A stretch of DNA of 64,000 nt, from NCBI RefSeq assembly GCF_032116555.1, contig NZ_CP134949.1, positions 496,001-560,000 on the forward strand. Reading direction: 5' to 3'. Of this stretch, positions 1,477 through 46,425 are shown piece after piece; within the stretch, counting starts at the first letter, position 1; the number at the start of each line of letters is the position of its first letter. This stretch comes from Halorarum halobium (GTDB taxonomy: Archaea; Halobacteriota; Halobacteria; Halobacteriales; Haloferacaceae). The notes below the pieces were generated by a model. It had not been told where the DNA came from. It ran no database searches and saw nothing but the letters and a program-made list of their open reading frames with translations. The position numbers were made by a program, and so were the translations under genes.

Positions 1477-1820
1477 CGGCGCGCGTGACGGCGAGCCCCG
1501 AAGTGGGCGAGCAGACGCGCGCGAGGGACGAGCACCGCAGGCGAACGAGCGAAGCGAGTGAGACGAGGAGCGCAGGAGGCTGGGGAGGGTGAGGCGCGGG
1601 GCGGTCGCGGTGGGTGGGACTGAAAGGGGCCGGCTGGGTACGCGAACCCCGGACCCGGTGAGGCGAGCAAAGCGAGGCGAACCTCGGAAGTCGCAGCCGA
1701 CGAACGTCGCGAGGAGGACCGTCTTCCGTAGCAAGCACCGCAGGCGAGCGTAGCGAGCCGAGGAGCACAGCGCGGTCCGCGGGAGCGTAGCCAGCCGGGG
1801 GCTTTCGAGGCGGTCGTCAC
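1477..1820 (+). repeat. Modular intergenic palindromic repeat, copy R1 (full-length type)
   Basis: Colinear with reverse complement of 46163-46425; core GGGTGGGACTGAAAGGGGCCG at 1612-1632; terminal GGGGGCTTTCGAGGCGGTC. Confidence 0.9.
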
Positions 1821-1980
1821 TATCCACCGGCCCACGCCGGACGTGACACATCAGGAGCCGAGAACGGCGAGGGATTCCGTGTCCACTGCCACGATATCCC
1901 TTCGACCTGCGTTCGACCCACACAGTTGCCCACGTTCGAGGACCGGTCCGGCTAAGTCCCCGGATGCCCCACACCCGCGC

Positions 1981-3048
1981 ATGCACTACCGCGAACTGGG
2001 CGACTCCGGCGTCGAGGTGAGCGAGGTCGCCTTCGGCGCGTGGGTCGTGGGGACCGACTGGTGGGGCGACCGGAGCGACGCGGACGCCGTCGAGATGGTC
2101 GAGTACGCGCTGGAGAACGACGTCACGTTCTTCGACACCGGCGACGTGTACGGCCACGGCCGCTCGGAGGAACTCGTCGGCGAGGCGCTCTCGGAGCACC
2201 GCGACGAGGTCACGGTCGGCACGAAGGTCGGCTACGACTTCTACGACAACCCGCAGGCGGGCCACGGCGAACTCCCGAAGGAGCTGACCCCCGAGTACGT
2301 CCGTGAGGCCGTCGAGAACTCGCTCGACCGGCTCGACATGGAGTACGTCGACGTGCTGTTCCTCCACAACGCGAACGTCGACGAGGTGACCGACGAGCTG
2401 CTGGAGACGCTGTACGACCTCCGCGGGGAGGGGGTCGTCGACGCGCTCGGCTGGGCGCTCGGCCCCTCAATCGGCTGGCTGGCCGAGGGCGACCGCGCCG
2501 CGGAACTAGACTTCGACGCGATCCAGACCGTCTACAACCTGTTCGAGCAGACGCCCGGCAACCACTTCGTCGAGAGCATCCGCGAGGAGAACGCCGACAC
2601 GAGCATCGTCGCCCGCGTCCCGCACTCCTCGGGCCTGCTGAACGAGCAGGTCACGCCCGACACCGAACTCGGCGAGGGCGACCACCGCGCCTACCGACCC
2701 GACGACTGGTTCGAGACCGGCTGGGAGAAGCTGGATGAGATTAGGTTCCTCGAACGCGACGGCGCGCGGACGATGAGCCAGGCGGCCATCCAGTGGCTGC
2801 TCGCCCACGACGAGGTCGCCGCGGTGACGCCGACGTTCCGCTCCCGGGAGGACATCGACGAGTGGGCCGCCGCCTCCGAGACGCCCCCGCTCTCCGAGGA
2901 GGAGTTCGAACGCGTCGCCGACCTGTCCGCCCGGAACTTCGGCATCGACCGGAGCGACGGCATGGACGCCGAGGAGTTCCGCACCTCCGTCGGCGGCGAG
3001 GACCTCCGGGACGCGGGCGTCATCCCCGCGAACTCCGCCGAGAACTGA
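1981..3048 (+). CDS. Aldo/keto reductase
   Basis: MHYRELGDSGVEVSEVAFGAW, FFDTGDVYGHGRSEE, SLDRLDMEYVDVLFLH motifs. Confidence 0.92.
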   Translation: MHYRELGDSGVEVSEVAFGAWVVGTDWWGDRSDADAVEMVEYALENDVTFFDTGDVYGHGRSEELVGEALSEHRDEVTVGTKVGYDFYDNPQAGHGELPKELTPEYVREAVENSLDRLDMEYVDVLFLHNANVDEVTDELLETLYDLRGEGVVDALGWALGPSIGWLAEGDRAAELDFDAIQTVYNLFEQTPGNHFVESIREENADTSIVARVPHSSGLLNEQVTPDTELGEGDHRAYRPDDWFETGWEKLDEIRFLERDGARTMSQAAIQWLLAHDEVAAVTPTFRSREDIDEWAAASETPPLSEEEFERVADLSARNFGIDRSDGMDAEEFRTSVGGEDLRDAGVIPANSAEN

Positions 3049-3257
3049 TGGGAGGCGGCGCGCGACCGTCGGGGCGCGCCCCCGGACGGCGGGGAAGCCG
3101 CGGGCGAATCGCGGCGGCGACGCTCGTCGTACACGCGGGACTCGCAGCCGCCGTCGCGCTGGACGCGCGTGGAACCGATCGTGACGCCGGCCGCTGGGGG
3201 CTGGTGACGCTCGCGACCGGAGTCTTCGGCGCCCTCGCGTACGTTCTCACGCGCTGA
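3048..3257 (+). CDS. Small membrane protein
   Basis: ATG overlaps upstream TGA (TGATG); two hydrophobic stretches flanking DARG, ending GALAYVLTR. Confidence 0.55.
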   Translation: MGGGARPSGRAPGRRGSRGRIAAATLVVHAGLAAAVALDARGTDRDAGRWGLVTLATGVFGALAYVLTR

Positions 3258-3290
3258 CCGCGATTCTCTCCCCGTATCGGCTCCCCGGGG

Positions 3291-4862
3291 TCACTCCGCG
3301 TTCGTCCTGACCTCGAAGCGGGCCCCGCCCCCGTCGCTCTCGACGAGCGCCACGTCCCAGCCGTGGGCGTGTGCGATCTCCCGGACGATCGACAGCCCGA
3401 AGCCCGTCCCGTCCTCCGCGGTGGTGAAGCCGCGCTCGAACACCTCCTCGCGGTCCCCCGGCGGGATTCCCACCCCGTCGTCGGCGACGAAGAACCCCTC
3501 GGCTGCCGGGAGGGTATCGACCGTGACGGCGACGTCCTCGCCGGCGTGCTCGGTCGCGTTCCGGAACAGGTTCTCGAACAGCTCCCGAAGCCGTGAGGGG
3601 TCGGCGCTCACGCTCCCGAGTTCCGGGCTCACCGAGAGGTCGCCGCCGGGGACGGTCCCCCACACCTCTCGGGCGAGGGGCGCGAGCGCGACCGGCTCGA
3701 TATCGCCGAGGTCCCGGCCGGTCCGCGCCAGCGAGAGCAGGTCCTCGATGAGCGCCTCCATCCTGCCGTGTGCCTCCGCGATGCGGGCGTGGTGCTCGCT
3801 GTCCCCCTCGTCGGCCGCGAGTTCGAGCCGGCCCTGTGCGACGTTGAGCGGGTTCCGGAGGTCGTGGCTCACGACCGAGGCGAACTCCTCCAGCCGGTCG
3901 TTCTGTCGGGCCAGTTCCCGCTCGCGGTGGCGGAGCATCACCTCCCGCTCGGCCCGGTCGAGCGCCGCCTCGACGTTGTCGGCGAACACCCGTGCGAGAC
4001 CCAGATCCGACTCATCGAAGGCGTTCGTCTCGTCGGAGCCGGCCATGAACACGCCGTGCTCGCCGAGCGGGAGGACGACCTCGCTCCGGACCTTCGTGTC
4101 GGGGTTCTGGACGCGCTCGGATTCGCGCACGTCGCCGTGGAGGACGGCTTCGCCGGACTCGAACGCCTCCCAGCCCACGCTGCCGTCCTCCAGATCGGGG
4201 ATGTCGCCGAACATCGCTCTCGCCTCCTCGGTGACGCTCACCGGGACGAGCCGGGTCCCGTCCGAGGAGAGCAGGTGGATCGAGTTGACGCGGAGCCCGA
4301 GGATCTCGTGGGCCGCGTTCGTCGCGGAGGCGGCGACTGCGGCGGTGTCCCGGGCGGTCATCAGCTCTCGGGCCGCCTTGTGGAGCCGGTCGAGGCGGCG
4401 TTCGCGGTCGAGCCGGTCGAGCGCGACCCCCATGTTCTCGGCGAGCAGGTGGACGAGTTCGACGTTCGTCTCGTCTGCGTCCCGCTGGTCGGCCGCGCCC
4501 GCGACGAGGACGCCGTGGGAGCCGATGGGGACCACGACCCCGGCCTCGATCACCGAATCGCGGACCCGGTCGAACGTGACCGGCTCGCTCCCCTCGAAGA
4601 CGGACCAGACCGCGTCGCCACGCCGGTACACGGGGACCTCGTCGTAGCGCTCGCGGATCGCCTCGCTCGTCGCGATCGGTTCGAGGTGCCCGCTCGATTC
4701 GAGGAGGTAGACGCCGACGAACGGGAGCCCGAGGATGTCCTCGGCCGTCTCGACGGCCACGGCACAGAGCGACTCGCGGTCGGCGGCCGTCAGCAGATCC
4801 CGCGTCGCCGCGTAGAGCGCCCGCACGCGCTCGGTTCCCCCCTGGGGGTCGCGGGGATTCAT
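3291..4862 (-). CDS. GAF-GAF sensor histidine kinase
   Basis: FASVVSHDLRNPLNVA H-box, ENLFRNA N-box, DDGVGIP and GTGFGLSIV G-boxes; two GAF-like repeats. Confidence 0.9.
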   Translation of the reverse strand: MNPRDPQGGTERVRALYAATRDLLTAADRESLCAVAVETAEDILGLPFVGVYLLESSGHLEPIATSEAIRERYDEVPVYRRGDAVWSVFEGSEPVTFDRVRDSVIEAGVVVPIGSHGVLVAGAADQRDADETNVELVHLLAENMGVALDRLDRERRLDRLHKAARELMTARDTAAVAASATNAAHEILGLRVNSIHLLSSDGTRLVPVSVTEEARAMFGDIPDLEDGSVGWEAFESGEAVLHGDVRESERVQNPDTKVRSEVVLPLGEHGVFMAGSDETNAFDESDLGLARVFADNVEAALDRAEREVMLRHRERELARQNDRLEEFASVVSHDLRNPLNVAQGRLELAADEGDSEHHARIAEAHGRMEALIEDLLSLARTGRDLGDIEPVALAPLAREVWGTVPGGDLSVSPELGSVSADPSRLRELFENLFRNATEHAGEDVAVTVDTLPAAEGFFVADDGVGIPPGDREEVFERGFTTAEDGTGFGLSIVREIAHAHGWDVALVESDGGGARFEVRTNAE

Positions 4863-4981
4863 TACTGCTGGGGTATCGGAGGGGTCCTGATAAATCCCGC
4901 ACCTTCCGTGCGAGTGGTTCCCGAACGCGCGTGGATCGCCCGAACACGCGTGGGTCGCCCGGACGCTCGTGAACCCGCCGG

Positions 4982-6586
4982 TCAGGCCAGGAACACGTGC
5001 CGCGGCCGGTCGGCCAGGACGTCCCGGCCCCACGAGACGGTGTCCCGGAACGCGTCCGAGCGGAAGAACGCCATCGCGTCCTCCTTCGAGGCCCACTGGC
5101 TGGCGATGAACATGTCGTTCTCGTCCTCGCGGTTCACCATCAGGTCCGTCTCGTGGTGGCCCTCCATGTCGGCGAGCAGGTCGCCGACCGTCCCGAACTT
5201 CCCGACGAAGTCGTCGGTGTGTTCGGGCTTGACGGTGTAGAACATCCCCATGGTGCCGAACCCGGACTCCTCGCCGGCGCGCGCGACGATGCCGGGGAGC
5301 TCCGAGAGGAAGCCCGCCGCCGTCTCGGCCGCGCTGGCCGTCTCCCAGATGGAGACCACCGCCTCGCGGTCGGTCTCGGTGCCCGAGTAGACGGCCGTCT
5401 TCACGTGGGTGCCGTAGTGGTCGAAGTTGCCGCGCAGCCCCTCGACCTCCTCGAACAGTTCGTCCGGGTCGGCCTCGGAGTAGAGCACGGTGGCGAACAC
5501 GTCCTCGCCGTGGGGTTTGCCGGCGTAGATGTCGAGGTCCCCCAGTTCGGCGCGGATCGACGCCTCGTCGTCCGCCTCCGCCCCGTCGCCGTCGCGCTCG
5601 TCGCTCTCGCCGCCGTCGCGTCCGTGGTGGCCGCCCTCCGCGTGCGGATGGTCGCCGTCGCCGCTGTGGCCGTCGCCGTGAGGGTGGTCCCCGTGCGCGG
5701 ACTGGCCGTGCGGGCGGCCGCTGGTGGCACCTGCCTCGCCGGCAGCGTGCGGGTGGCCGCCGTGGTGCCCCTCGCCGTGCGGGCCCCCGGACTCGCCGTG
5801 GTCGCTCGTCGGCACCGGGTCGCCGGCGAGGTACGCGCCGAGATCGCTCGGCGGGAACCGGCGACCGACGTAGAACTGCCCGAACTCGCCGTAGCGCGAG
5901 GACGCCTCGTCGAAGCGCATCTCGTAGACGATGTCCTTGATGTCGGTCGGGTCCGACGCGAACAGGGTGACGCCCCACTCGTGGTCGTCGAACCCCACGG
6001 AGGAGGCGATGACCTGCTTGATCTTCCCGGCGTACTCCCGGCCCACGTCGCCGTGGCCCGACATCAACTCGGCGCGCTCGTCGAAGCTCAGGTCGTACCA
6101 GTTGTCCCGTTCGCCCCGGCGCTTGCTCATCGGGTAGAAGGAGACGTACTCGCCCTGGGGGATGTCCGGCTTCAGTTTCCCCTCGATGTAGCGGCGGAGC
6201 CCCTCGTCGATCTCGTCCTCGTCGCCCTCGAAGTAGTCGTCCGAGACGTATCCGGACACCTCGGTGACGGAGACGTAGGAGGTCGGCTGGCTCGTGAACG
6301 ACGCGAGCGCGGTGGATTCGAACCGGCGTTCGGCCGTCGAGAGCGCGTCCATCGTCGGCCGGAAGTGGACGACGAGCAGGTCGGCCTTGTGCCCGAGGAC
6401 GGAGAACACCGCCGAGGCACCTTCCTCGGCGTCGGCGACGTCCTCGTGGCGCTGCAGGTAGTCGGTCCCCTCGGCGATCGCCTGTCGACGGTCGCGCTCG
6501 GGGGCGTCACGCCAGCCGTCCCAGTCCACCTGCCGGAAGTCGTGGAGCACGTACCACCCTTCGTCGGTCCGCGGGGCTTCGGTCAT
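4982..6586 (-). CDS. pitA: PitA: chlorite dismutase/coproheme decarboxylase-like domain fused to ABM monooxygenase domain
   Basis: EGWYVLHDF, YPMSKRR...NWY, GFDDHEWGVTLF, MRFDEASSRYGEFG; His-rich linker; C-terminal ABM domain. Confidence 0.88.
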   Translation of the reverse strand: MTEAPRTDEGWYVLHDFRQVDWDGWRDAPERDRRQAIAEGTDYLQRHEDVADAEEGASAVFSVLGHKADLLVVHFRPTMDALSTAERRFESTALASFTSQPTSYVSVTEVSGYVSDDYFEGDEDEIDEGLRRYIEGKLKPDIPQGEYVSFYPMSKRRGERDNWYDLSFDERAELMSGHGDVGREYAGKIKQVIASSVGFDDHEWGVTLFASDPTDIKDIVYEMRFDEASSRYGEFGQFYVGRRFPPSDLGAYLAGDPVPTSDHGESGGPHGEGHHGGHPHAAGEAGATSGRPHGQSAHGDHPHGDGHSGDGDHPHAEGGHHGRDGGESDERDGDGAEADDEASIRAELGDLDIYAGKPHGEDVFATVLYSEADPDELFEEVEGLRGNFDHYGTHVKTAVYSGTETDREAVVSIWETASAAETAAGFLSELPGIVARAGEESGFGTMGMFYTVKPEHTDDFVGKFGTVGDLLADMEGHHETDLMVNREDENDMFIASQWASKEDAMAFFRSDAFRDTVSWGRDVLADRPRHVFLA

Positions 6587-6700
6587 GCTCGGGGGTTGGC
6601 ACGCGGGGGGTTTGCCTGTTTTCCTTCGATTCTTTTGGAAAGTGCGGTGTCGGCTGGGGATGACTCGGGTGGTGTTTCGGGTCTCAGGGGTTCGCTGGTG

Positions 6701-6929
6701 ATGACCGCGAAAGCCCCCGCGGCTCTCGGCTCCCGGGCCTCGCTGCGGTCCTCAGTCGCTCGCTCCGCTCGCGCCCGCCGCGGTGCTCGTCCATCAGATG
6801 CGGTCGGCGCGTGCCGGCGGGCCTCCGTGCCCGCCGGGTGCGCGCGAGGGGTGAGCATCGCAGCGAGCTTGCGAGCGAGAAGCGCAACGGCTGGGGAGGG
6901 CGAGGCCGTAATCACCGCCAGCAGTAGTG
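6701..6929. repeat. Modular intergenic repeat, copy R2 (composite, head-to-head modules)
   Basis: Begins CGAAAGCCCCCGCGG; 6800-6929 is a near reverse complement of 31170-31280. Confidence 0.85.
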
Positions 6930-7006
6930 ATCCAGTTGTTCGTCCAGTAGACTAGCGACGCACTCGCCTTCGAACCACCGCGATTCCGCTACCCGTTCAA
7001 ATCGGA

Positions 7007-7543
7007 CTAGTTCTCCTCGATGGCGTCGATCACCACCGCAGCGATGACCACCAGCCGCGGATCGATATCGCCCGACACCGACACCGTGTAGCGGTCCCGG
7101 AACGAGAACGCGCCCTCGATCCGCCCGACCTCGCTCCCGTCATCGGCCTCCACGACGTAGGCGAACGGCAGCAGCGTCGTCACCATCCGGCGGACGAACG
7201 CGCGCAGCCAGTTGTCCTCCTTCACCGTCGCCACGACGTCGCCGTCGGGACCGAGCAACTGGTACTCGTGTTTCAGCAGCGACTTCAGGCTCCGCTTGAC
7301 CGACCCGACGCGCTCGCCCGTCCGCGAGTCCTCGATGTCGTAGGCGGCCGACGTGTCGAGCACGCTGTCAGCTTTCACTCGGAACAGTTCCTCGCCGCCG
7401 TCGGCGTCGGTAAAGCGGAAGTCCTCCTTCAGCTTCAGCTTCTTCTGCTTGGACGCGAGGATCTCCCGACCCTCCTCGGAGACGACGTACGCGTTGCCGA
7501 TGGCGATCTTCTGCTGGATCTCGTAGCGGGAACCGTCGAACAT
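7007..7543 (-). CDS. LURP-one/scramblase-like (Tubby C-terminal-like) protein
   Basis: YEIQQKIAIGNAY, KQKKLKLKEDFRF, DPRLVVIAAVVIDAIE. Confidence 0.7.
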   Translation of the reverse strand: MFDGSRYEIQQKIAIGNAYVVSEEGREILASKQKKLKLKEDFRFTDADGGEELFRVKADSVLDTSAAYDIEDSRTGERVGSVKRSLKSLLKHEYQLLGPDGDVVATVKEDNWLRAFVRRMVTTLLPFAYVVEADDGSEVGRIEGAFSFRDRYTVSVSGDIDPRLVVIAAVVIDAIEEN

Positions 7544-7694
7544 GGCCGATGATGCCGCCCCCGCCGGCATGAACGTTCGGAGTTCGACCCGCGGCGCGGC
7601 CCACAGTTGCCGGGTCTGGTCCGACGCCGGATCCGGGTCGGACTGTGACGGCGTACCCGAATGCCTTTGCCCGAGCGGGGATTCCTCCCCGGTA

Positions 7695-9482: not shown

Positions 9483-9521
9483 ACGGTCGGAGAATCCCGG
9501 GAGGGTAGCGGTTCGTCGGTT

Positions 9522-10270: not shown

Positions 10271-10451
10271 ACCACTGCTGCTGGCGGTGAGTACGGGCCA
10301 CAGCCTCCCGTCCCTCGGAGCGAACGTTTCGGAACTCGCTCTCGCTCCGCTCACGTGAACAGCCGCTTGCGGCCCTCGCGGGGCTCGCGAGCTCGCTGTA
10401 CATCTCACCTCTCGCGCGCGAGCCCCGCGAGGGGCGAGCGTCACGCGCGCC
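10271..10451 (-). repeat. Modular intergenic repeat, copy R3 (diverged)
   Basis: Starts ACCACTGCTGCTGGCGGTGA (cf. 31168); middle resembles 33825-33876; ends GTCACGCGCGCC (cf. 46413). Confidence 0.7.
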
Positions 10452-10570
10452 ACCGCGCCGGAAACGGCTCATCGGACCCGTTCGGACCGATATATAAATA
10501 CTCGCGTGTTATTCGGTGCCATACGTCGGAATCGTGGTGTGTGAGTGGGGTTGTCAGCCCCAGGCCGATG

Positions 10571-15785: not shown

Positions 15786-15920
15786 ACTGCGAGGAACTTG
15801 ACCCACGCCGAGACGGTCACTCCCTTCGGTCGCGCTGCGACTCGTCTCCTTCGAATCCCTCTCGCAATCACGATTCGCCGGACTCGGCTCCTCGCTCCGC
15901 TCGTCGCGGTGAGTCCGGCA
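15786..15920 (-). repeat. tRNA 3'-associated structured repeat, R4
   Basis: Stem 15877-15885/15911-15919, two GNA mini-hairpins, inverted T-arm copy and degenerate direct copy of tRNA 3' end. Confidence 0.7.
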
Positions 15921-15927
15921 GAACTAG

Positions 15928-16000
15928 CGGGCGGCGAGGGATTCGAACCCCCGACCTTTTGGTTCGGAACCAAACGTTCTATCCACTGAACTAGCCGCCC
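15928..16000 (-). tRNA. tRNA-Arg (anticodon CCG), no encoded CCA
   Basis: GGGCGGC/GCCGCCC acceptor stem, TTTGG-TTCCGAA-CCAAA anticodon arm, GGTTCGAATCC T-loop; 73 nt. Confidence 0.97.
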
Positions 16001-17768: not shown

Positions 17769-18112
17769 CGCGGAAGCCCCCGCGTTTCTCGGCTCGCGCG
17801 CCACGCGCTGGGCTCCTCGCGCTCGCTCCGCTCGCGCTGTGGTGCTTACGGTGTCGTGCTTCCCCGAGAAACGCGGCCCCTTCCATTTCCGCCCGTCGGT
17901 AATTCGGTCGAGCGACGCTCCGCTGGCTGACCGATGTGTGCCGTCGGTCGGTCAGCCGGCATCGGCGCGCGGCGGCCGCGCTCCGCGCGGCCGCTCGTGC
18001 GAGGCTCAAGCGAGCGCAGCGAGGGTGAGTTCCGAGGAGCGTGCTCCGAGGTAAAGACGAGGTCCCGACCGAAGGGAGGGGCATCGCCGGTTGGGGAGGG
18101 CGAGGCTGCGGT
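17769..18112. repeat. Modular intergenic repeat, copy R5 (two modules in opposite orientation)
   Basis: CGGAAGCCCCCGCG end; perfect stem 17780-17792/17864-17876; variant core at 17874-17894; GNA hairpins at 17822, 18011, 18066. Confidence 0.85.
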
Positions 18113-28204: not shown

Positions 28205-28300
28205 ATGACCGCCTCGAAAGCCCCCGCGGCGCTCGACTCCCCCGCACCACGCGGTTGGTCGAGCAGATGCGGTCGGTGCGGGCCGTTCACGCGAGCGAAC
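28205..28300 (-). repeat. Truncated repeat copy R6
   Basis: ATGACCGCCTCGAAAGCCCCCGCGGCGCTCG and CAGATGCGGTCGG shared with R2, R7 and R10. Confidence 0.75.
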
Positions 28301-31167: not shown

Positions 31168-31540
31168 CCACTACTGTTGGCGGTGATTGTAGCCACGGCC
31201 TCCCCAGCCGATTGCGATGCTCGCTCGCAGGCTCGCTGCGCTTCTCATCCCTCGCGCGCATCCGGCGCGGACGGAGCCGCGCCGGCACGCGCCGACCGCG
31301 GCCAACTCGACCAGGCCACGTGGTGCGCGGCGGCCGCCCCTCGTGGGCGACCGCTCGTGCGAGGGACGAGCACCGCAGGCCGAAGCTCTCGTGAGCGACG
31401 CAGGAGCGAACGAGAGCACGCGGGTCGAGCGAAGCGAGTCCCGCGAAGGCCGAGAAGCGCAGGAGGCTGGCGAGAGTGAGGTGCGGTGCCGTGCGGTGGG
31501 TGGGACTGAAAGGGGCCGCGGGGGCTTTCGAGGCGGTCAC
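31168..31540. repeat. Modular intergenic repeat, copy R7 (composite)
   Basis: Left part reverse-complements R2; core at 31498-31518 joined directly to terminal GGGGGCTTTCGAGGCGGTC. Confidence 0.9.
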
Positions 31541-33819: not shown

Positions 33820-33892
33820 TTTCGCTCGGAGCACCCTCCTCGGAACTCACCCTCGCCACGCTCGCGTGAGCAGCCTCCTGTGCTCCTCGCGG
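33820..33892 (-). repeat. Repeat fragment R8
   Basis: Reverse complement matches 18011-18049 (GCGAGGGTGAGTTCCGAGGAG.GTGCTCCGAG); CAGCCTCCTGTGCTCCTCG identical to 46321-46339. Confidence 0.8.
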
Positions 33893-36431: not shown

Positions 36432-36539
36432 TGCAACGGCGTTGCCGCGATTCGCTCTTAAGGCTCCCGGACTGGTCGTTCCGCGGGTCGCGCTGGCGGG
36501 GACGTCCTTCCCGGTTTCGAACGACCAAACGACCGGATG

Positions 36540-36762
36540 GCGCGCGGCGGCCGCCCCTCGTGGGCGGCCGACTCGCGCGAGGGATAGAGTGAGGGGAGCG
36601 ACCGAAGGGAGCGCCGAGCGAATCGGCTGGGGAGGCGTGTGGCCGTGCCGTGCGGAGCGGGTGCGGTGGGTGGGACTGAAAGGGGCCGCGGGGGCTTTCG
36701 ATGGGCCGAAGCGACGACCGAACCAACGCTCGAACCGAGAGCAGCCGGGGCTTTCGAGGCAG
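36540..36762 (+). repeat. Modular intergenic repeat, copy R9
   Basis: GCGCGGCGGCCGCCCCTCGTGGGCG shared with R7; core at 36668-36688; two GGGGCTTTCG termini. Confidence 0.88.
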
Positions 36763-37909: not shown

Positions 37910-38167
37910 ATGAGCGCAACTGCAAACCCCTCCACCGAACCTGACGTCGATAGCCCCTCCAAGGAAGAGCGCCTCAAGGGCTTCCTGCTCTCGAAGGCCC
38001 AGGATGGCGAGCTCTACTTCAAGAGCAAGTTCATCGCCGAGGAAGTCGGGCTCTCCCCGAAGGAGATCGGCGCACTCATGGTGAAACTCAAGGACTCCGC
38101 CTCGGAGCTCACCATCGAGAAGTGGTCGTACACGAGCGCGACCACGTGGCGCATCGAACCGGCATAA
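37910..38167 (+). CDS. Small haloarchaeal winged-helix-like protein
   Basis: YFKSKFIAEEVGLSPKEIG...IEKWSYTSATTWR; GAGGTG ribosome-binding site upstream. Confidence 0.8.
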   Translation: MSATANPSTEPDVDSPSKEERLKGFLLSKAQDGELYFKSKFIAEEVGLSPKEIGALMVKLKDSASELTIEKWSYTSATTWRIEPA

Positions 38168-38345
38168 CGAACCGACCCGACGACCGATCGACCGGCGGAT
38201 CGAATCGGCGCACAGTTCGCTCACGCGTGGTCCCCGCACGCGTCGAACGACCGGCCCCTCGCGGCCTCGTCCCCCGCTTTCCTCCGGTTCCCATCGTCGA
38301 TAGCGCCGGGGAGGACTTATCCATCCGTGGACCGAACGCTCGCCA

Positions 38346-39482
38346 ATGAGCGAAGCGGTCCCGGGGGACGTCCCCCGGCCCCCGGAACTGAACGCCGTCT
38401 TCCACCTCTCCGAGGTGCGGACCGACGGCGAGCGCGTCCTCTACTACGGCGTCAGCGACGTGGGCGAGGACGCGCTCGTCGAACGGATCTGGCCGGCGTT
38501 CCGCGAGCGAGGGTACGAGGTCCAGGTCGTCCAGACGGACCGCGGACTCGACGTCGTCGTCGCCCGGCCCTACTCGACCGGCGTCGACGGGGTCCCGTGG
38601 ACCAACGTCGTCCTGTTCTGTGCGACCCTGCTCTCGACCCTGCTCGTGGGCGCGACCGCGTGGTACTACATCCCCTTCTCGGCGATCCGCGAGAACCCGC
38701 TCGTCGCGCTCCAGGCGTGGCCGTTCACCGCGGCGGTGCTCGGGGTGCTGTTGACCCACGAACTCGGCCACTACGTCATGGGCCGGTACCACGACGTGGA
38801 CGTGTCGCTCCCGTACGTCATCCCCTTCATCCTCCCGTTCGGGACGATGGGCGCGATCATCCGGATGCGCGGGCAGATGCCCGACCGGAAGGCGCTGTTC
38901 GACATCGGCGTCGCGGGGCCGCTCGCGGGGCTCGGGGCGACGGTCGTCGTCACGGTCGTCGGCCTCCTGCTCGGCCCGTTCCAGGTCCCGGCTGAAATCG
39001 TCCAGCAGGGCGGGCGCGTCATCGTGTTCAACAACCCGCCGTTGCTCGATCTCATCGCGGGCGCGATCGGCCAGCCGACCGGCTACGCCGACCCGAGCCG
39101 GACGGCCCACCCGGTGATCATGGGCGCCTGGGTCGGGATGTTCTTCACCGTGTTGAACCTCCTCCCGGTCGGTCAGCTCGACGGCGGACACGTCGTCCGC
39201 GCGATGGTGGGCGAGCGCCAGGAGACGGTCGCCTCGCTCGTCCCCCTCGCCCTGTTCGGCGTCTCGGCGTACCTCTACTACGTCCGCGACCTCGGGCTCA
39301 ACGAGTCGGTCGGCCTCTGGGCGTTCTGGGGGCTCTTCTCCGCGTTCATCGCCTACCGCGGCCCGGCGAACCCCATCGACGACTCGTCGCTCGACGGGAA
39401 ACGGATGGCCGTCGGCGTGGTGACGTTCGCGCTCGGCCTGCTGTGTTTCATGCTGGTTCCGATCCGCGTCGTGACGCTGTGA
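38346..39482 (+). CDS. Site-2 protease (M50)
   Basis: HELGH, GVAGPLAG, NLLPVGQLDGGH. Confidence 0.92.
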   Translation: MSEAVPGDVPRPPELNAVFHLSEVRTDGERVLYYGVSDVGEDALVERIWPAFRERGYEVQVVQTDRGLDVVVARPYSTGVDGVPWTNVVLFCATLLSTLLVGATAWYYIPFSAIRENPLVALQAWPFTAAVLGVLLTHELGHYVMGRYHDVDVSLPYVIPFILPFGTMGAIIRMRGQMPDRKALFDIGVAGPLAGLGATVVVTVVGLLLGPFQVPAEIVQQGGRVIVFNNPPLLDLIAGAIGQPTGYADPSRTAHPVIMGAWVGMFFTVLNLLPVGQLDGGHVVRAMVGERQETVASLVPLALFGVSAYLYYVRDLGLNESVGLWAFWGLFSAFIAYRGPANPIDDSSLDGKRMAVGVVTFALGLLCFMLVPIRVVTL

Positions 39483-39514
39483 TCGGGCCGCCAGCCGCCC
39501 CGGCCGACCTCCGT

Positions 39515-39639
39515 ACTGATCCATTCCGGACCTGACTCGTCCCGGACTGATCCATTCCGGACCTGACTCGTCCCGGACTGATCCATTCCGGACCTGACTC
39601 GTCCCGGACTGATCCGTCCCGGACCCGACCCGTCCCGAC
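39515..39639. repeat. 31-bp tandem repeat, 3 exact + 1 degenerate units
   Basis: ACTGATCCATTCCGGACCTGACTCGTCCCGG at 39515, 39546, 39577; decayed unit at 39608. Confidence 0.95.
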
Positions 39640-40509: not shown

Positions 40510-40643
40510 CGACGGAGTGTCGGTGTGGCCGGCCCGAAACGCTTTCGACGTGGGCCGGTCTGACCGCCCCGGATCGGGCCGCCACCGCCCCGCCGCCCGA
40601 ATCTTTCGACGGCTTGATACCGCGCCCCGCCGGACTCGGGGGC

Positions 40644-41672
40644 ATGGATCGGGACCAGCTTCGGGCCACCGTCCTCGGGTTCGGCGGCGCGATCGCCGTC
40701 CTGTCCGTGTTGCTCTACTTCGTCGGCGTCGACGAACTGGTGGCCGAACTGTCCCGCGCCGACAGCTCGACGGTGCTGCTCGTCGTCGGCGTGACGCTCG
40801 CCTGGCTGCTGGCCTGGGCGATCGCGCTCAAGACCGTCCTCGGGGTCCTCGGCGTCTCAGTCTCGCTTCCCCGGTCGTTTCTGGTGTTCAACGGGGCGAT
40901 GTTCTCGAACAACGTCACGCCGTTCGGGCAGGCGGGCGGCGAGCCGGTCGCGGCGCTGCTCATCTCGAAGATGGCCGACACCGAGTACGAGAAGGGGCTC
41001 GCCGCCATCGCCAGCGTCGACACGCTGAACTTCGTCCCGTCGGTCTCGCTGGCGCTGATCGGGGCGGCCTACTTCGCCACCGAGACGACGTTCGGCACGC
41101 GATTACAGCTCGCCACCGGCGCGGTCGTCCTCCTCGCGGTCGCCGTCCCCGGCGCGGTGTACGTCGGGTGGAAGTACCGCTACAGCCTGGAGAACCGGGT
41201 CGTCTCCGGGCTCACGCCGCTCATCCGGTGGATCACCGACCGGATCCCGGGCGTCCCGGTCCCGACCCCGGCGTCGCTCGAGTCCCGGATCGGCCACTTC
41301 TTCGGCGCGATCGAGCGCGTCGCGACCGACAGGCGGGCCATCGCGGTCTCGCTGGCCGCCTCGACGCTCGGCTGGGGGTTACAGATGTCCGGGCTCTGGC
41401 TCGCGTTCGTGGCCATCGGCGAGTCCATCCCGTTCTCGGCGGTGCTGTTCGTGGTGCCGATGGGCGCGATGGCCGGAATCACGCCCCTCCCGGGCGGGAC
41501 GGGCGGCATCGAGGCGGTGCTCGTGGCCGTGCTCGCGGCGCTTCCGGGGGTCACCATCGGCGTGGAGACCGCGCTCGCGGCCGTGGTCATCTACCGCGGC
41601 GCGGTGTACTGGGTGCCCGTGCTCGTCGGCGGGACGGTCGTGAGCGTCGTCGGCGCGGACAGCTTCGGCTGA
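40644..41672 (+). CDS. Flippase-like membrane protein (lysylphosphatidylglycerol synthase TM / UPF0104)
   Basis: NNVTPFGQAGGEP, PLPGGTGGIE, IYRGAVYW. Confidence 0.88.
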   Translation: MDRDQLRATVLGFGGAIAVLSVLLYFVGVDELVAELSRADSSTVLLVVGVTLAWLLAWAIALKTVLGVLGVSVSLPRSFLVFNGAMFSNNVTPFGQAGGEPVAALLISKMADTEYEKGLAAIASVDTLNFVPSVSLALIGAAYFATETTFGTRLQLATGAVVLLAVAVPGAVYVGWKYRYSLENRVVSGLTPLIRWITDRIPGVPVPTPASLESRIGHFFGAIERVATDRRAIAVSLAASTLGWGLQMSGLWLAFVAIGESIPFSAVLFVVPMGAMAGITPLPGGTGGIEAVLVAVLAALPGVTIGVETALAAVVIYRGAVYWVPVLVGGTVVSVVGADSFG

Positions 41673-41762
41673 GCAGTACCGATGGAACCGCCGGACGACG
41701 GTCGTTGCTGGCCGGCCGGTACGGGCCGTGTGGCCGACCACGAGCGGCGGAGATACGACGAG

Positions 41763-41768
41763 TTTAAA
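41763..41768 (+). promoter_or_regulatory. TATA box of rps19e
   Basis: TTTAAA 25-30 nt upstream of ATG 41793. Confidence 0.65.
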
Positions 41769-41792
41769 CGGCGGGACACTGAATTCGGCCGT

Positions 41793-42248
41793 ATGGTCAC
41801 TCTCTACGACGTCCCGGCGGCGGACCTCATCGAGGAGGTCGCCGACCGGCTCGAGGAACGCATCGAGGAGCCGGAGTGGGCCGGCTTCACGAAGACGGGT
41901 CCGAACCGCGAATTGCCGCCCCAGCAGGACGACTTCTGGTTCGTCCGCACGGCCTCGCTGCTCCGCAAGGTCGCGGACAACGGCCCCATCGGCGTCGAGC
42001 GCCTGGCGACCGAGTACGGCGGCTCGAAGGCCGGTACGAACCGCTACCGCGTCTCCCCGTCCGAGCACTCGGCCGGCTCGAAGAAGATCATCCGGGTGGC
42101 GCTCCAGCAGCTCGAGGAGGAGGGGTTCGTCGAGACCGCGAAGGGCGAAGGGCGACGGATCACCGACGACGGGACGGCGTTCCTCGACGAGGCCGCCGGC
42201 GACGTGCTCGAGGAGCTCGATCGGCCGGAACTGGAACGCTACGCGTAA
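41793..42248 (+). CDS. rps19e: 30S ribosomal protein S19e
   Basis: PEWAGFTKTG, FWFVRTASLLRKV, ALQQLE...GRRIT. Confidence 0.96.
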   Translation: MVTLYDVPAADLIEEVADRLEERIEEPEWAGFTKTGPNRELPPQQDDFWFVRTASLLRKVADNGPIGVERLATEYGGSKAGTNRYRVSPSEHSAGSKKIIRVALQQLEEEGFVETAKGEGRRITDDGTAFLDEAAGDVLEELDRPELERYA

Positions 42249-42511
42249 CGTTTCCCCTGTTGTGGCGTGTGGTTTTCGAACGTGATCGGTGAGCGACCGG
42301 TATCGTTTCCAGTTGCTAGCGGGGTCGGTGGCCGTGTGTCCGGCTGGGGCAGCAATCGTCGGGGAGTCTCCTGATCGGTGACCTCGAGCGCCGCGGGGGC
42401 GCTCCGGAACTGCGTCAGACCGACCGACTCGACGACCGAGTCGGCCACCGCCGTTCCCCACTCCGTCGGTTACGTACCGACCTCGGGGACGGATCCGGCC
42501 GAATCGATCAC

Positions 42512-43330
42512 TCAGGAGGACTCGTACCGGAGGCCAAACTCGCGTTCCAGCGCCTCGAACCACTCGTCCTCCGTAACCGACTCCCCGGTTTCCTCCCCGT
42601 CCACGTTCCACGTCACCGAGTCCACGCGCAACTTCACGTGTCCCCCGGGTGTCGCAACCGAGACCACGGGGTCGCCCGTGAACGTCGACTCGGGCGCGCT
42701 CTGGAGGTAGTCACACGTCGCCTCGAAGTACGACAGCGAACGCGGCTCGTCGCTGAACAGGTACCGATCGGTCCACTCGTCACTCCCGGGCTCCCGGTAC
42801 TGGGTCAGGTACGTCTCGTCGGGGCGGTCGCTCTCGACGACGCGCCAGGCGTAGCCCGCCGCATCGACCACCACCGCGCCGTCGAGCGGCGTCGGGCGGC
42901 GCATCGTCGGCACGCCCATCCCCACGTCCACCAGATACCGACGGCCGTCCGGTTCGACGACGTTCGCGTGGTGGTTCGCGGGCGGGCGACCGGTCCCGTC
43001 GTCGCCGACGACCCTGGCGGCGACCCGGTCGACGTCGACGCCGAGGTCGGCGAGCAGCGCGTGGGCCAGGCCGTTGAGTTCGAAACAGAACCCGCCGCGC
43101 TCGCGCTCGACGATCTTCTCGTACAGGTGCGGCAGGTCGAGAACCACGCCCGCGCCGTCGTCGGATCCGTCGAACGGGTGACCGGTGACGGCGAGCGTCT
43201 CGAACGGCACCGAGCGGACGTGTGCCGTCTGGAGGCGCTCGATCGCGTCCAGGTCGGGCCCGCCCGGGGCGTGCCACGCCGGAGCGTCGGGGTCCAGCCC
43301 GATTCGAGTCAGGTAGCGGTCCGAATCCAT
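42512..43330 (-). CDS. Arylamine N-acetyltransferase family protein
   Basis: HVRSVPFETL, RGGFCFELN (Cys), NHH (His), LVDVG (Asp). Confidence 0.92.
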   Translation of the reverse strand: MDSDRYLTRIGLDPDAPAWHAPGGPDLDAIERLQTAHVRSVPFETLAVTGHPFDGSDDGAGVVLDLPHLYEKIVERERGGFCFELNGLAHALLADLGVDVDRVAARVVGDDGTGRPPANHHANVVEPDGRRYLVDVGMGVPTMRRPTPLDGAVVVDAAGYAWRVVESDRPDETYLTQYREPGSDEWTDRYLFSDEPRSLSYFEATCDYLQSAPESTFTGDPVVSVATPGGHVKLRVDSVTWNVDGEETGESVTEDEWFEALEREFGLRYESS

Positions 43331-43444
43331 GGTCGTCCCGGCCGGACCTACCGGGCCGACGGTCAAAAGCGGTCCCTGAACCTCGTTCCTGTAACGGGGC
43401 TGATCCGTCCGCGGAATCGGCGGACGTGACTCACTCCAGCGTGC

Positions 43445-44038
43445 TCACTCCAGGGTGCCGCGGACGTACGTCTGCTCGTGAGCCGGGAACACCTCGGCGA
43501 CGGCGTCGTCGCCGCCGTCCGCCCGGAGGAGTTCGCGGAGTTCGCCCTCGTAGTCCGACTTGGGGATCTCCTCGCTCGGGCCCGATTCGACCTCGAGCGT
43601 CTCCCCGACCAGCCGGTCGACCGCGTTGCGGCCGAACCCGGAGAGCGGGGCGATGTAGTCGACGCCGTGTCGGTCCTCCAGCGACTGGGCGAACGCCCGC
43701 GAGACGGAGGGGACGCGGTCGTCACGCCGTGTGCCGTCGGCGACGGCGTCGACGTCGAGCGCGGCGACCTCCTCCATGGCGTGCTCGTGGACCTGCTGGA
43801 TGCCGTTTCGGGGGTAGCCGTCCTCGCGCATCGTCTCGACTGCCTCCGCGGCGACCTCGGGGTCGAGTTCGTGCGTCTCGAACGGGAAGCCGAGCGCCGC
43901 GGCCGCCTGGCGCGCGTGCTCGTGGTCGTCGGTGACGTCGAAGTGGGCCGTGACGAGCCGGACGTCGTAGAAGCCGTCGAGGACGAGCGCCGCGAGCGAG
44001 GAGTCCTTCCCGCCGCTGTAGAGGAGCGCGAGTTCCAT
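43445..44038 (-). CDS. Conserved archaeal PP-loop (adenine nucleotide alpha hydrolase) protein
   Basis: LYSGGKDSSL, ADGTRRDDRVP, SDYEGELR. Confidence 0.85.
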   Translation of the reverse strand: MELALLYSGGKDSSLAALVLDGFYDVRLVTAHFDVTDDHEHARQAAAALGFPFETHELDPEVAAEAVETMREDGYPRNGIQQVHEHAMEEVAALDVDAVADGTRRDDRVPSVSRAFAQSLEDRHGVDYIAPLSGFGRNAVDRLVGETLEVESGPSEEIPKSDYEGELRELLRADGGDDAVAEVFPAHEQTYVRGTLE

Positions 44039-44389
44039 TCAGCGGCGGCGGATGTCGAAGCTCTTCTGCTCGGGCTGGAGTTCGCGCAGCAGCGACTTCA
44101 TCTGCTCCTCGTCGATGCGGTCCTGGATGCGCCCGCTCTTGGCCAGCGCCGTGACCTGCTGTTTCACCTGCTTGGCGAAGTCGGGCTTGCTCATCTCGAC
44201 GGCGTTGAGCCGCTGGCGCGCGCCGTCGGTGAGGTACTGTTTGAGCAGCGCGTCCTGCTGTTGCTGGGCGCGCTCCTGGGCGGCCTGCTGGGCCTCCTGG
44301 TCGCCTTCGCCGCCGGCCTGTTCCTGAAGCTCCTGCATCTTCTGCTCCCGGAGCTCCTCCAGTCGCTCGTCGTCGGGGGTTTCGCTCAT
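44039..44389 (-). CDS. PDCD5-family DNA-binding protein
   Basis: [33 protein letters not shown]. Confidence 0.92.
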
Positions 44390-44739
44390 GCTGGGTGTGC
44401 GTTACTGTGGCGCGGCCAAAACGATTGCGGGTGAGGCGTGGATGGTGTGGGGAGAGTTGGTACGCGGGCGGTCACCGTCGCTTCTGCTCCGTCGGCTCAT
44501 TCTCCTCGATGCAGTTCCGGAAACTCCCGGCCACTCTTGGCTCCCGGTGTGCGGTCTTCGGTCCTGGCTTGGTCGTCGTGGCGGTCGAAACGACGACCAA
44601 ACAACCGCAGAAGCCGACAGCCACGGGAGTCCGCGAGGCGACTCACGTCGTAACATCGCGACCGACCGAACCCACCGACTCCGAAGGAAGAAACGGAAGA
44701 ACCACGACCTTAAACCACGTCACGCGAATACTCCGACCC

Positions 44740-46056
44740 ATGCCCACCTACGAGCGCCTGAAGGGGTTCCGCGACTTCTACGCCCCCGAGATGGCCGCGC
44801 GCCGCGAGGTCATCGACACGATCGAGGACGTCGCGCGGCGCTACGGCTTCCGGGAGATCGACACGCCGCGGCTCGAACGCGCCGAGATGTGGACCGACAA
44901 GAGCGGCGACGACATCGTCGACGAACTGTACGCGTTCGAGGACCACGGCGGCCGCCACGTCACGCTCGCCCCGGAACTGACGCCGACCGTCGCGCGGATG
45001 TACGCCGCGAAGGCCCAGGAGCTGTCCAAGCCCGTCAAGTGGGTATCGACCCGGCCGTTCTGGCGCTACGAGCAGGTCCAGCAGGGCCGCTTCCGCGAGT
45101 TCCACCAGACGAACGTCGACGTCTTCGGCTCCGCGGAACCCGAGGCCGACGCCGAGGTGCTCGCCGTCGCGGCCGACGCGCTCACCGGCCTCGGCCTGAC
45201 GCCCGAGGACTTCGAGTTCCGCGTCTCCCACCGCGACATCCTCGGGAGCCTCCTGCGCTCGTTCGACGCCCAGGTCGACGTGACCGCCGCCATCCGCGCG
45301 GTGGACAAGTCCGAGAAGGTCGACGAGGACGAGTATCTCGGCCTGCTGTACGACGCCGGCCTGTCGTACGACCAGGCGCGCGAGTTCGACTCGCTGCTCG
45401 ACGTCCGCGACCCGGCGACCCTCGACGAACTCACCGAGTTCGCGCCCGACGCCGAGGGGCTCGCGGACGCGGTCGAGAACCTCCGTGCGGTGCTCGCTGC
45501 CGCCGAGGACTTCGGCGTCGGCGAGCACTGCGACCTCTCGCTCCGGACCGCGCGGGGGCTGGACTACTACACCGGCGCCGTCTTCGAGTGCTTCGACTCG
45601 ACGGGCGAGGTGTCCCGCTCGGTGTTCGGCGGCGGGCGCTACGACGACCTCATCGAGGAGTTCGGCGGCCAGCCCACCCCCGCGGTCGGCGTCGCGCCGG
45701 GCCACGCCCCGCTCGCCCTGCTGCTCGAACGCGCCGGCGTCCTCCCCGACGCGGAGCTCTCGACCGACTACTACGTGCTCGGGGTCGGGGACACCCGCGA
45801 CGTGGCGGCGCGGGTCGCACGGGACCTCCGCGCGGGCGGCAACGTCGTCGAGTCGGACGTCGCCGGTCGGAGCTTCGGCGCGCAGATGGGCTACGCGGAC
45901 TCGGTGAACGCCGAGACGGTCGTCATCGTCGGCGAGCAGGACCTGGCAGACGGGAACGTGACGGTCAAGGACATGGGGTCGGGCGAGCAGACGACCGCGC
46001 CGGTCGAGGAGTTCCCCGGCGGACTGGAGCGGCCGACGTACGACGACTTCGCGTGA
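44740..46056 (+). CDS. hisS: Histidine--tRNA ligase
   Basis: KGFRDF, PELTPT, WRYEQVQQGRFREFHQ, RGLDYYTG, GGGRYD. Confidence 0.97.
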   Translation: MPTYERLKGFRDFYAPEMAARREVIDTIEDVARRYGFREIDTPRLERAEMWTDKSGDDIVDELYAFEDHGGRHVTLAPELTPTVARMYAAKAQELSKPVKWVSTRPFWRYEQVQQGRFREFHQTNVDVFGSAEPEADAEVLAVAADALTGLGLTPEDFEFRVSHRDILGSLLRSFDAQVDVTAAIRAVDKSEKVDEDEYLGLLYDAGLSYDQAREFDSLLDVRDPATLDELTEFAPDAEGLADAVENLRAVLAAAEDFGVGEHCDLSLRTARGLDYYTGAVFECFDSTGEVSRSVFGGGRYDDLIEEFGGQPTPAVGVAPGHAPLALLLERAGVLPDAELSTDYYVLGVGDTRDVAARVARDLRAGGNVVESDVAGRSFGAQMGYADSVNAETVVIVGEQDLADGNVTVKDMGSGEQTTAPVEEFPGGLERPTYDDFA

Positions 46057-46162
46057 TTAGTCAGGTTTGGGGGGCTATGGGTTGTTGCAGCCTTCGTTGA
46101 GTCGTTCTCGAACGGCCCCAAGGCGCTTGGCTTCGGTGCAGGTCCGGTAGTCGTGGCGCACC

Positions 46163-46425
46163 CCTCGAAAGGCCCCCGCGGCGCTCGGCTCCCACGAACC
46201 GCGCTGCGCTCCTCGTCACTCGCGTTGCTCGCTCCTGTGGTGCTTGCGGGTTCGGGGTTCGCCGAGAGCCGCGGCCCCTTTCAGTCCCACCCTCCGCACG
46301 GCACCGCACCTCACCCTCCCCAGCCTCCTGTGCTCCTCGGTTCACTCGCTTCGCTCGTTCACCTGCGGTGCTCGTCCCTCGCGCGCGTCGCCTCGCCCCT
46401 TGGGGGCTCGCCGTCACGCGCGCCG
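46163..46425 (-). repeat. Modular intergenic repeat, copy R10 (full-length type)
   Basis: Reverse complement colinear with R1; core at 46272-46292. Confidence 0.9.

What the first reader, a model, noticed from the sequence alone, without database searches (positions are those of the whole stretch)
1477..46425. Dispersed modular intergenic repeat family with an invariant 21-bp core and no transposase
Seen: about 10 intergenic spacers (1477-1820, 6701-6929, 10271-10451, 15786-15920, 17769-18112, 28205-28300, 31168-31540, 33820-33892, 36540-36762, 46163-46425) are built from the same shuffled modules, in both orientations. GGGTGGGACTGAAAGGGGCCG is identical at 1612, 31498, 36668 and 46272 (minus), with a variant at 17874. 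A terminal GGGGGCTTTCG motif recurs at least 7 times. All copies are intergenic, roughly one per 5 kb. Established: bacterial REP/BIME elements are modular palindromic intergenic repeats mobilised in trans by HUH (RAYT/TnpA-REP) enzymes. Inference: this is an archaeal REP/BIME-like or MITE-like system whose mobiliser or binding protein is encoded elsewhere. I do not know a named haloarchaeal family matching it, but cannot exclude one.
Basis: partly seen in the sequence, partly recalled or inferred. Interest (0 to 1): 0.85.

Follow-up and report, generated by a model that had tools for sequence, protein, structure and literature searches.

The report
Quadruplex-cored hairpin repeat of haloarchaea
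The repeated spacers are copies of a gene-less DNA repeat found across salt-loving archaea, whose four runs of G lengthen and shorten together, so its core is predicted to fold into a G-quadruplex at the foot of a long hairpin, which would be rare evolutionary evidence that such folds matter in archaea.

Summary
Real. Nine of the ten sites belong to one mosaic intergenic family (153 elements of 80 nt or more in this genome; core in 125 of 301 Halobacteria genomes, 0-187 copies in one genus). The tenth is a tRNA-tail repeat. The core is not invariant. It opens a ~110-nt hairpin whose stems vary but keep pairing. New here: four G-runs covary. Of 314 copies, 235 are GGG-type and 56 are GG-type, with no cross between the two types. 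This predicts a three- or two-tier G-quadruplex between two helices, probably in single-stranded DNA. It may rest on one evolutionary event and is unfolded experimentally. Copies mostly stay at fixed sites while their hairpin cassettes are exchanged. No RAYT was found in 301 genomes and this genome has no Y1 enzyme, so the REP/HUH reading is unsupported. A minority of copies elsewhere sit inside IS6-type miniature transposons. Closest in layout: REP/BIME and Pseudomonas TwoAYGGAY repeats. Ten literature searches found no description. This scan noted the same family on other DNA (e1-4371547, e1-4223972, e1-2324566); their short summaries do not mention the G-run covariation. The partner protein and any RNA remain unknown.

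The parts
1478..1807 (+). Full long-form arm: hairpin A (1478-1528), hairpin B (1531-1575), G-rich box (1578-1588), 5-mer repeats, core (1612-1630), long hairpin C with a nested insert, end motif (1797-1807)
1612..1629 (+). Core: G-run 1 (1612-1614), 1-nt loop, G-run 2 (1616-1618), 3-nt linker, 5' strand of basal 5-bp stem (1622-1626), G-run 3 (1627-1629)
   Evidence: sequence; fold leaves runs 1-3 unpaired; covariation
1797..1807 (+). End motif: G-run 4 (1799-1801) and 3' strand of the basal stem (1802-1806)
6703..6932 (.). Divergent doublet remnant: truncated minus arm (end motif 6708-6717), junction (6798-6807), plus arm with alternative end and no core
10272..10457 (-). Degenerate arm with alternative end, no core
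15786..15920 (-). tRNA-tail hairpin repeat (different family; shares only GNA mini-hairpins)
15927..16000 (-). tRNA-Arg gene
17769..18112 (.). Divergent doublet: complete short arm on minus (17771-17894; variant core with a compensated basal pair, G-run 2 one G short), junction hairpin (17902-17947), plus long arm truncated before the core
28205..28300 (-). Collapsed remnant: end motif (28215-28224) plus junction
31168..31540 (.). Divergent doublet: minus arm with alternative end, junction (31316-31323), plus long arm with collapsed core (31498-31530, four G-runs, hairpin C deleted)
   Evidence: same site filled in G302 and in G045 of another genus (L170)
33820..33892 (-). Fragment (cassette and hairpin-B end)
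36539..36762 (+). Long arm with collapsed core (36668-36700) and a repeated end motif (36746-36756)
46166..46424 (-). Full long-form arm; core 46275-46292, hairpin C 46176-46274, end motif 46166-46175

Best explanation
These spacers are copies of a non-coding repeat family of Halobacteria whose conserved core is predicted to fold, likely in single-stranded DNA, into a G-quadruplex held between a 5-bp helix and a ~110-base hairpin; copies mostly stay at fixed intergenic sites while likely exchanging hairpin cassettes by recombination, and new sites are likely reached, at least in part, as cargo of IS6-type miniature transposons rather than by a REP-type HUH enzyme. Shown: anatomy, class-wide range, stem covariation, matched G-run lengths, strand-biased GNA mini-hairpins, retention at orthologous sites with swapped interiors, mosaic sharing between distant copies, IS6-type ends with 8-bp duplications around some copies, absence of RAYT. 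Inferred: the quadruplex itself; DNA rather than RNA; gene conversion and template switching as the exchange route; a chromosomal protein that reads the fold and so keeps it under selection (not identified).
For: G-runs: of 314 distinct copies, 235 have runs 1-3 = 3,3,3 and 56 have 2,2,2; none crosses the two types; 23 are other, mostly single-G losses. All 56 GG copies have the short fourth run about 100 nt away, and 233 of 235 GGG copies the long one; 0 of 44 copies from four genomes sampled for the GG type (two sampled with both types) are chimeric. The GG subtype pattern hits 34 of 301 genomes in 8 families; 27 of 30 fetched loci were elements. The 1-nt loop is free (C, T or A). Stems: Watson-Crick fraction 0.84 (54 arms, this genome) and 0.88 (182 arms elsewhere) against 0.58 and 0.41 shuffled; the basal pair is compensated in four variants, 177 of 182 matched. 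DNA signs: 174 GA-mismatch GNA-triloop hairpins in 47 kb of elements (37 per 10 kb, against 0.3-0.5), 41:0 and 59:1 on the core strand; GNA triloops 591 against GNRA tetraloops 169 in 281 hairpins; no orientation bias to genes (29 against 24 in tandem spacers) or along the chromosome. Fixed sites: in genus g2 one site is occupied in 13 of 13 syntenic relatives and another in 9 of 10 with both anchors, cassettes differing; L240 and L241 differ by an inverted interior with a perfected palindrome. In the own genus 9 of 114 spacer comparisons are filled in both, about 1.5 expected. Mosaic: none of 153 elements is matched over 90% of its length, yet 56 share a tract of 60 nt or more at 97% and 18 share 100 nt or more, median partner 511 kb away. 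IS6 route: ends match IS6 inverted repeats read; perfect 8-bp duplications in L261, L263, L270.
Against: No folding experiment. The GG subtype may have arisen once, so the covariation may be a single event; runs 1-3 are tightly linked; and for loci fetched with the GGG pattern runs 1-3 were fixed by the search (run 4, the GG subtype's upstream runs, this genome's 28 independently anchored copies, and the metagenome loci were not). Standard folding z-scores are modest (-1 to -2.5 on the core strand, stronger on the opposite strand for one arm). G-T over A-C bias (41:7 and 17:8) fits RNA as well as DNA. IS6-type ends flank both sides in only 3 of 81, 4 of 11, 0 of 53, 0 of 23 and 0 of 90 units; this genome has only an IS6 remnant, so how its copies reached new sites is unexplained. 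No partner protein found. The g2 site comparison used the 29 best-matching of 74 genomes, so it leans to close kin. Ten cores here have lost hairpin C and four window sites lack the core, so many copies are decaying.
Confidence: 0.5

Rival explanations
1. The unit is a multi-copy structured RNA (an archaeal counterpart of TwoAYGGAY-type repeats); the quadruplex and hairpin would form in the transcript.
For: Long covarying hairpin with G-T tolerance. Same layout as Pseudomonas TwoAYGGAY loci: divergent doublets (12 of 12 here, median about 250 bp; 68%, median 249 bp there), upstream 5-mer arrays (mean 1.97 against 0.71 per 60 nt), variable copy number (bioRxiv 10.64898/2026.09.22.753630 section 8). 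TATA-like sequence upstream in 15 of 24 copies of G031.
Against: 0 of 67 copies here have that TATA-like sequence. No orientation bias to genes. Loops are GNA triloops rather than GNRA tetraloops, and AYGGAY is depleted (17 against 70 expected). No Rfam match at E up to 5. The predicted quadruplex needs two antiparallel runs, which suits DNA better (recalled).
Confidence: 0.22
2. These are ordinary IS6-family MITEs and their decayed interiors; the hairpin would be passenger sequence kept palindromic by template switching, with no function of its own.
For: IS6-type inverted repeats at fixed distances (43-47 nt before the core, 52 nt after the end motif) with 8-bp duplications in several genomes; both subtypes occur behind such ends (L432, L441); copy number 0-187 in one genus suggests dispensability.
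Against: Most copies lack the ends (0 of 90 here); the seven IS6 elements whose ends could be read are about 700 bp with no room for the unit; template switching would erase, not keep, the G/G loop and G-A mismatches; it does not explain matched G-run lengths.
Confidence: 0.13
3. A REP/BIME- or PATE-like element moved in trans by a Y1 HUH enzyme acting on folded single-stranded DNA.
For: Mosaic palindromic layout, inverted doublets, conserved 5' leader before an imperfect hairpin; 55-60 and 111-116 nt mini-inserts enter at a fixed CG^C site without duplication (28 in elements), as single-strand transposition would.
Against: No PF01797 hit and no tblastn hit to 27 haloarchaeal TnpA proteins here beyond one 22-aa match; RAYT model over cut-off in 0 of 301 genomes, and high-copy G000, G009, G012, G014, G019 lack even a weak hit; PMC6006769 finds only IS200-type TnpA in archaea; 2 of 30 TnpA loci hold a core, and in L176 the IS simply sits in the tail with its own unrelated end.
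Confidence: 0.1

Closest known systems
REP / BIME / REPIN elements with RAYT (PMC3116915, passages read; PMC6006769, passages read)
   Same: Intergenic, multi-copy, mosaic imperfect palindromes; inverted doublets; lineage-specific core variants; likely single-stranded DNA substrate.
   Different: No RAYT, no GTAG/CGTC tag, much longer unit (about 125-330 nt per arm), no bias to convergent gene ends, covarying G-runs.
TwoAYGGAY repeats of Pseudomonas, Rfam RF01731 (bioRxiv 10.64898/2026.09.22.753630, section 8 read)
   Same: Multi-hairpin unit, divergent doublets about 250 bp apart, upstream degenerate 5-mer array, 3' repeats, widely varying copy number, no known mobiliser named in that section.
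   Different: No AYGGAY loops, no Rfam match, no sequence likeness found; no quadruplex core described there.
Haloarchaeal MITEs, PATEs and SMRs (PMC3119063 and PMC7002104, passages read; tables S8/S9 of the first not readable)
   Same: Transposase-free repeats of haloarchaea; some copies have IS6-type ends and 8-bp duplications; mini-inserts that target palindromes without duplication resemble SMR-A.
   Different: Most copies have no inverted ends; ends are unlike IS605 ends; class-wide structured core; long residence at fixed sites.
Recurrent potential G-quadruplex repeats of Methanomicrobiaceae (PMC8044849, parts 1-3 of 4 read)
   Same: Archaeal, intergenic, multi-copy, four G-runs with a 1-nt first loop, no strand bias to genes; quadruplex shown there in K+.
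   Different: There a C-rich tract follows and competes as hairpin or triplex; here runs 3 and 4 flank a long hairpin. The core pattern gave only 4 single hits in 240 non-Halobacteria genomes (control 2).
Ssn GIY-YIG nucleases with NTS/SRM repeats (PMC11893778, abstract and section 7 read)
   Same: Hundreds of hairpin repeats read as single-stranded DNA by a small protein is the kind of partner expected.
   Different: The small GIY-YIG gene here is not flanked by the repeat and is present regardless of copy number.

Membership tests
REP/BIME/REPIN (REPtron) | Multi-copy imperfect palindromes in intergenic mosaics | tested here: met
REP/BIME/REPIN (REPtron) | GTAG or CGTC tag at the foot of the hairpin | tested here: not met
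   Both depleted in elements (80 against 169, 528 against 1192); the leader is two G-runs
REP/BIME/REPIN (REPtron) | RAYT gene flanked by the repeats | tested here: not met
REP/BIME/REPIN (REPtron) | Inverted doublet as the main unit | tested here: inconclusive
   12 of 12 close pairs are divergent but hold only 24 of 103 cores
REP/BIME/REPIN (REPtron) | Cleavage or excision as single-stranded DNA | not testable with these tools
   needs biochemistry or deep reads of this strain; none held
PATE / IS200-IS605 derivative | Near-terminal palindromes like IS605 ends | tested here: not met
   30 TnpA loci: no end matches the core or end motif
PATE / IS200-IS605 derivative | Sequence match to HqIRS elements of Haloquadratum | not testable with these tools
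   supplementary .doc tables unreadable
IS6-type MITE | Terminal inverted repeats like a cognate IS6 | tested here: inconclusive
   Met in 11 of 143 loci and 4 of 11 g4 units; not met in this genome, 0 of 90; IS6 ends
IS6-type MITE | 8-bp target duplication | tested here: inconclusive
   Perfect in L261, L263, L270; 7 of 8 in L042, L114; absent in the other flanked loci
IS6-type MITE | Intact cognate transposase in the genome | tested here: not met
   PF13610 absent in G000 and G032; remnant in two frames at C1:2920839-2921419
TwoAYGGAY (RF01731) | Two AYGGAY terminal loops and Rfam score | tested here: not met
TwoAYGGAY (RF01731) | Divergent doublets and upstream 5-mer array | tested here: met
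Methanomicrobiaceae recurrent PQS | Four G-runs followed by a complementary C-rich tract | tested here: not met
   Four runs present, no C-rich tract; folds; range
Ssn/SRM system | Small GIY-YIG gene flanked by the repeat | tested here: not met
   Not flanked in G000; 5 of 20 g2 loci have one core about 1.1-1.3 kb away, none adjacent
G-quadruplex-duplex hybrid (structure class) | K+-dependent stacked G-tetrads | not testable with these tools
   Only sequence covariation

The most novel reading that the evidence does not exclude
A transposase-free class of self-maintaining DNA repeat: the quadruplex-duplex junction, stable in the molar potassium of haloarchaeal cells, stalls or nicks replication and so triggers gene conversion from other copies, which rewrites each site's hairpin cassettes and homogenises the core genome-wide using host enzymes only. 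Its inner hairpin module also occurs in contigs without the haloarchaeal scaffold, including attC-like sites, so it may belong to a cross-domain set of single-stranded DNA cassettes.
Probability: 0.22. Interest if true: 0.85.

Novelty: new variant of a known kind. Interest (0 to 1): 0.62.

Why it matters
Whether G-quadruplexes do anything in prokaryotic chromosomes is an open question, and usual arguments rest on motif counts. Here four G-runs, two of them about 100 nt apart, change length together across a class. That gives a natural three-tier versus two-tier pair that can be tested with short oligonucleotides and in lab haloarchaea. The family fills about 1% of some genomes, gives up to 187 near-identical recombination substrates per chromosome, and shows a REP/BIME-like system that persists without a RAYT.

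Tried and rejected
Mobiliser or partner searches in this genome, all negative: Y1 HUH, DUF559, Rep-Arvir DUF7845, reverse transcriptase, IS110 (tblastn, 76), intact IS6, HUH-motif scan of predicted proteins. Nine tyrosine recombinase matches exist (88) but were not linked to the repeat. The one TnpB gene lies beside the CRISPR array, not beside an element. Small GIY-YIG gene: present in nearly all 74 g2 genomes whatever the copy number, so rejected. Genes between close element pairs and neighbours of 80 loci are housekeeping genes with no recurring candidate; three single-copy loci showed none, one lying near IS110 genes in an IS-rich stretch. Terminator role: no enrichment between convergent genes (27 of 153 against 351 of 2283 spacers). 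Replication-direction bias: none (59 runs, 51 expected). Ancient sites shared between genera: 9 of 84 and 3 of 30 gene ends against 5-7% background, not convincing. Viruses: 20 hits of a 15-mer, none in element context; plasmids: 11 records, all large haloarchaeal replicons. Sequencing runs: no RNA holder listed and no holder above 0.13 of the words; contigs laid came from other organisms and showed only cassette-size variants. A formal pair count on alignment A1 was not obtained; covariation was scored by script. In one search the motif signature was crude: two of three relative-only rows are a spacer that does hold an arm here, and some own-only rows have remnants.
Full report
Observation. 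The 21-mer is exact at the four stated places. The 11-mer is exact five times, eight inside elements with one mismatch. Nine sites belong to the family; 15786-15920 follows tRNA-Arg and is a tRNA-tail repeat. Genome-wide there are 55 exact 21-mers, 221 repeat regions and 153 of 80 nt or more. They keep clear of gene starts (9 of 172 within 85 bp, against 63 of 134 for stops), show no preference for convergent spacers and are rare in low-GC DNA (2 in 28 windows under 60% GC, 111 in 145 over 70%).

Range. An exact 18-mer is in 125 of 301 Halobacteria genomes, control 0. A looser pattern hits 40 of 60 other Halobacteria and 4 of 240 other genomes of the phylum, single hits, control 2. In genus g2, 72 of 74 genomes carry 1-187 copies. 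It was not seen as an element in 20 viral hits and only on large haloarchaeal plasmids.

Anatomy. One arm reads: optional hairpins A and B, a G-rich box, a few 5-mer repeats, then G-run 1, one free base, G-run 2, a 3-nt linker, a 5-bp basal stem, G-run 3, a long hairpin, G-run 4 and the partner of the basal stem, then a tail that often repeats the end motif. Folding leaves runs 1 and 2 single-stranded and runs 3 and 4 facing each other in a 3x3 loop. Stems vary freely but pair: 0.84 and 0.88 against 0.58 and 0.41 shuffled. The basal pair is compensated by lineage, and once inside the window (17771-17894). All 12 core pairs within 1 kb are divergent, median about 250 bp. Double-hairpin mini-inserts enter at CG^C sites without duplication (28 in elements).

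The G-runs covary. Seven copies with a short run 3 turned up among 216, six of them with short runs 1 and 2. A pattern that fixed only run 3 and the last G of run 2 found this subtype in 34 of 301 genomes; 27 of 30 fetched loci were elements, and 24 of 27 scored copies had GG-N-GG upstream. Over 314 distinct copies, 235 are 3,3,3 and 56 are 2,2,2, none crosses, 23 are other; the fourth run follows suit in 56 of 56 and 233 of 235; none of 44 copies from G162, G282, G193 and G075 is chimeric. No C-rich partner exists, so a three- or two-tier quadruplex stacked between the two helices is the simplest reading (inference). Caveats: the subtype may have one origin, runs 1-3 are linked, and runs 1-3 were fixed by the search in loci fetched with the GGG pattern.

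DNA or RNA. Mini-hairpins with a GNA triloop and tandem G-A mismatches are about 70-fold enriched over other intergenic DNA and lie on the core strand 41:0 and 59:1; triloops outnumber GNRA tetraloops 591 to 169. That such loops are unusually stable in DNA, and that antiparallel runs suit DNA quadruplexes, is recalled, not tested. There is no orientation bias to genes. A TATA-like motif precedes 15 of 24 copies in G031 but 0 of 67 here. I favour DNA; RNA stays open.

How copies change. In the 29 best-matching of 74 g2 genomes, one site is occupied in 13 of 13 syntenic relatives and another in 9 of 10 with both anchors, with the scaffold kept and cassettes replaced; one pair differs by an inverted interior with a perfected palindrome, the mark of template switching (recalled). 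In the own genus 9 of 114 spacer comparisons are filled in both, 5 here only, 3 there only, by a crude signature. Within this genome no element has a full-length twin, but 56 of 153 share a near-identical tract of 60 nt or more with a distant copy. This fits gene conversion; polyploidy and efficient conversion in haloarchaea, and quadruplex-initiated conversion at Neisseria pilE, are recalled, from no call.

How copies spread. No Y1 enzyme here, no RAYT over the cut-off in 301 genomes, no recurring neighbour gene. IS605 ends are unrelated; one IS605-type element sits in a tail. Some short copies elsewhere lie between IS6-type inverted repeats at fixed distances, three with perfect 8-bp duplications; a note of this scan (e1-2324566) gave that lead and I tested it. 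This covers a minority and none of 90 units here, where only an IS6 remnant is left. The route of spread in this genome and the protein that reads the fold are unknown.

Comparison. It works like REP/BIME or REPIN but fails membership on tag and enzyme. Its layout closely parallels TwoAYGGAY loci of Pseudomonas without their loops or an Rfam match. The Methanomicrobiaceae quadruplex repeats share the four-run idea but not the architecture. Papers seen: PMC3119063, PMC6006769, PMC13107129, PMC7002104, PMC3116915 (passages), PMC8044849 (parts 1-3 of 4), PMC11893778 (abstract, section 7), bioRxiv 10.64898/2026.09.22.753630 (passages, section 8). Ten searches, one with the core letters, found no description; subscription papers, ISfinder and the tables of PMC3119063 were not seen and may bear on novelty. 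Earlier notes of this scan describe what appears to be the same hairpin family and the tRNA-tail family; these are unchecked AI notes, and the short summaries shown do not mention covarying G-runs.

Verdict. A real, class-wide, apparently undescribed repeat family: a new variant of the mosaic intergenic palindrome kind. Interest 0.62, carried mainly by the testable quadruplex covariation.

Noticed in passing
window 15786-15920; 14 of 53 tRNA calls in the genome: Hairpin repeats behind tRNA genes, with copies of the T-arm and the same GNA mini-hairpins; tandemly doubled at one tRNA in G301. A separate family, noted earlier by this scan.
   Followed up: partly
L278-L397 (metagenome contigs): The inner hairpin module also occurs in contigs without the haloarchaeal scaffold (64 of 120 by a rough filter that includes some truncated haloarchaeal copies): soil repeats, a repeat beside a recurring small gene (L282, L323, L343), tRNA flanks, and five low-GC contigs with attC-like ends. 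attC identity was judged by eye from recalled end motifs.
   Followed up: partly
window 1519-1588 and equivalents: A second G-rich arrangement brackets hairpin B in long-form arms and has its own variant in the GG subtype; it may be a second quadruplex-duplex junction. Untested.
   Followed up: no
G000, 28 copies inside elements: Double-hairpin mini-inserts of 55-60 or 111-116 nt at CG^C sites without duplication, resembling SMR-A of Haloquadratum.
   Followed up: partly
window 39480-39634: Tandem 31-nt repeat, four to five copies, between two convergent genes.
   Followed up: no
G000:C1:471582-489059 (just outside the window): A cas gene cluster (type I-B by recalled gene order, not profiled), a 93-repeat CRISPR array, an integrase fragment and the genome's only TnpB-like gene.
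   Followed up: partly
L176 (G129:C69): An IS605-type element has inserted about 20 nt into the tail of a family copy.
   Followed up: yes
L208-L227 (G031): In genus g2 a TATA-like palindrome flanks long-form copies on both sides and the tail forms tandem ~50-nt units.
   Followed up: partly
window 31168-31540 and L170: The same spacer, upstream of the same gene, is filled in the same orientation in G045 of another genus.
   Followed up: partly
window 48748-49992 and 52499-53764: Two paralogous genes in inverted orientation give the longest inverted repeat of the window; ordinary duplication.
   Followed up: no
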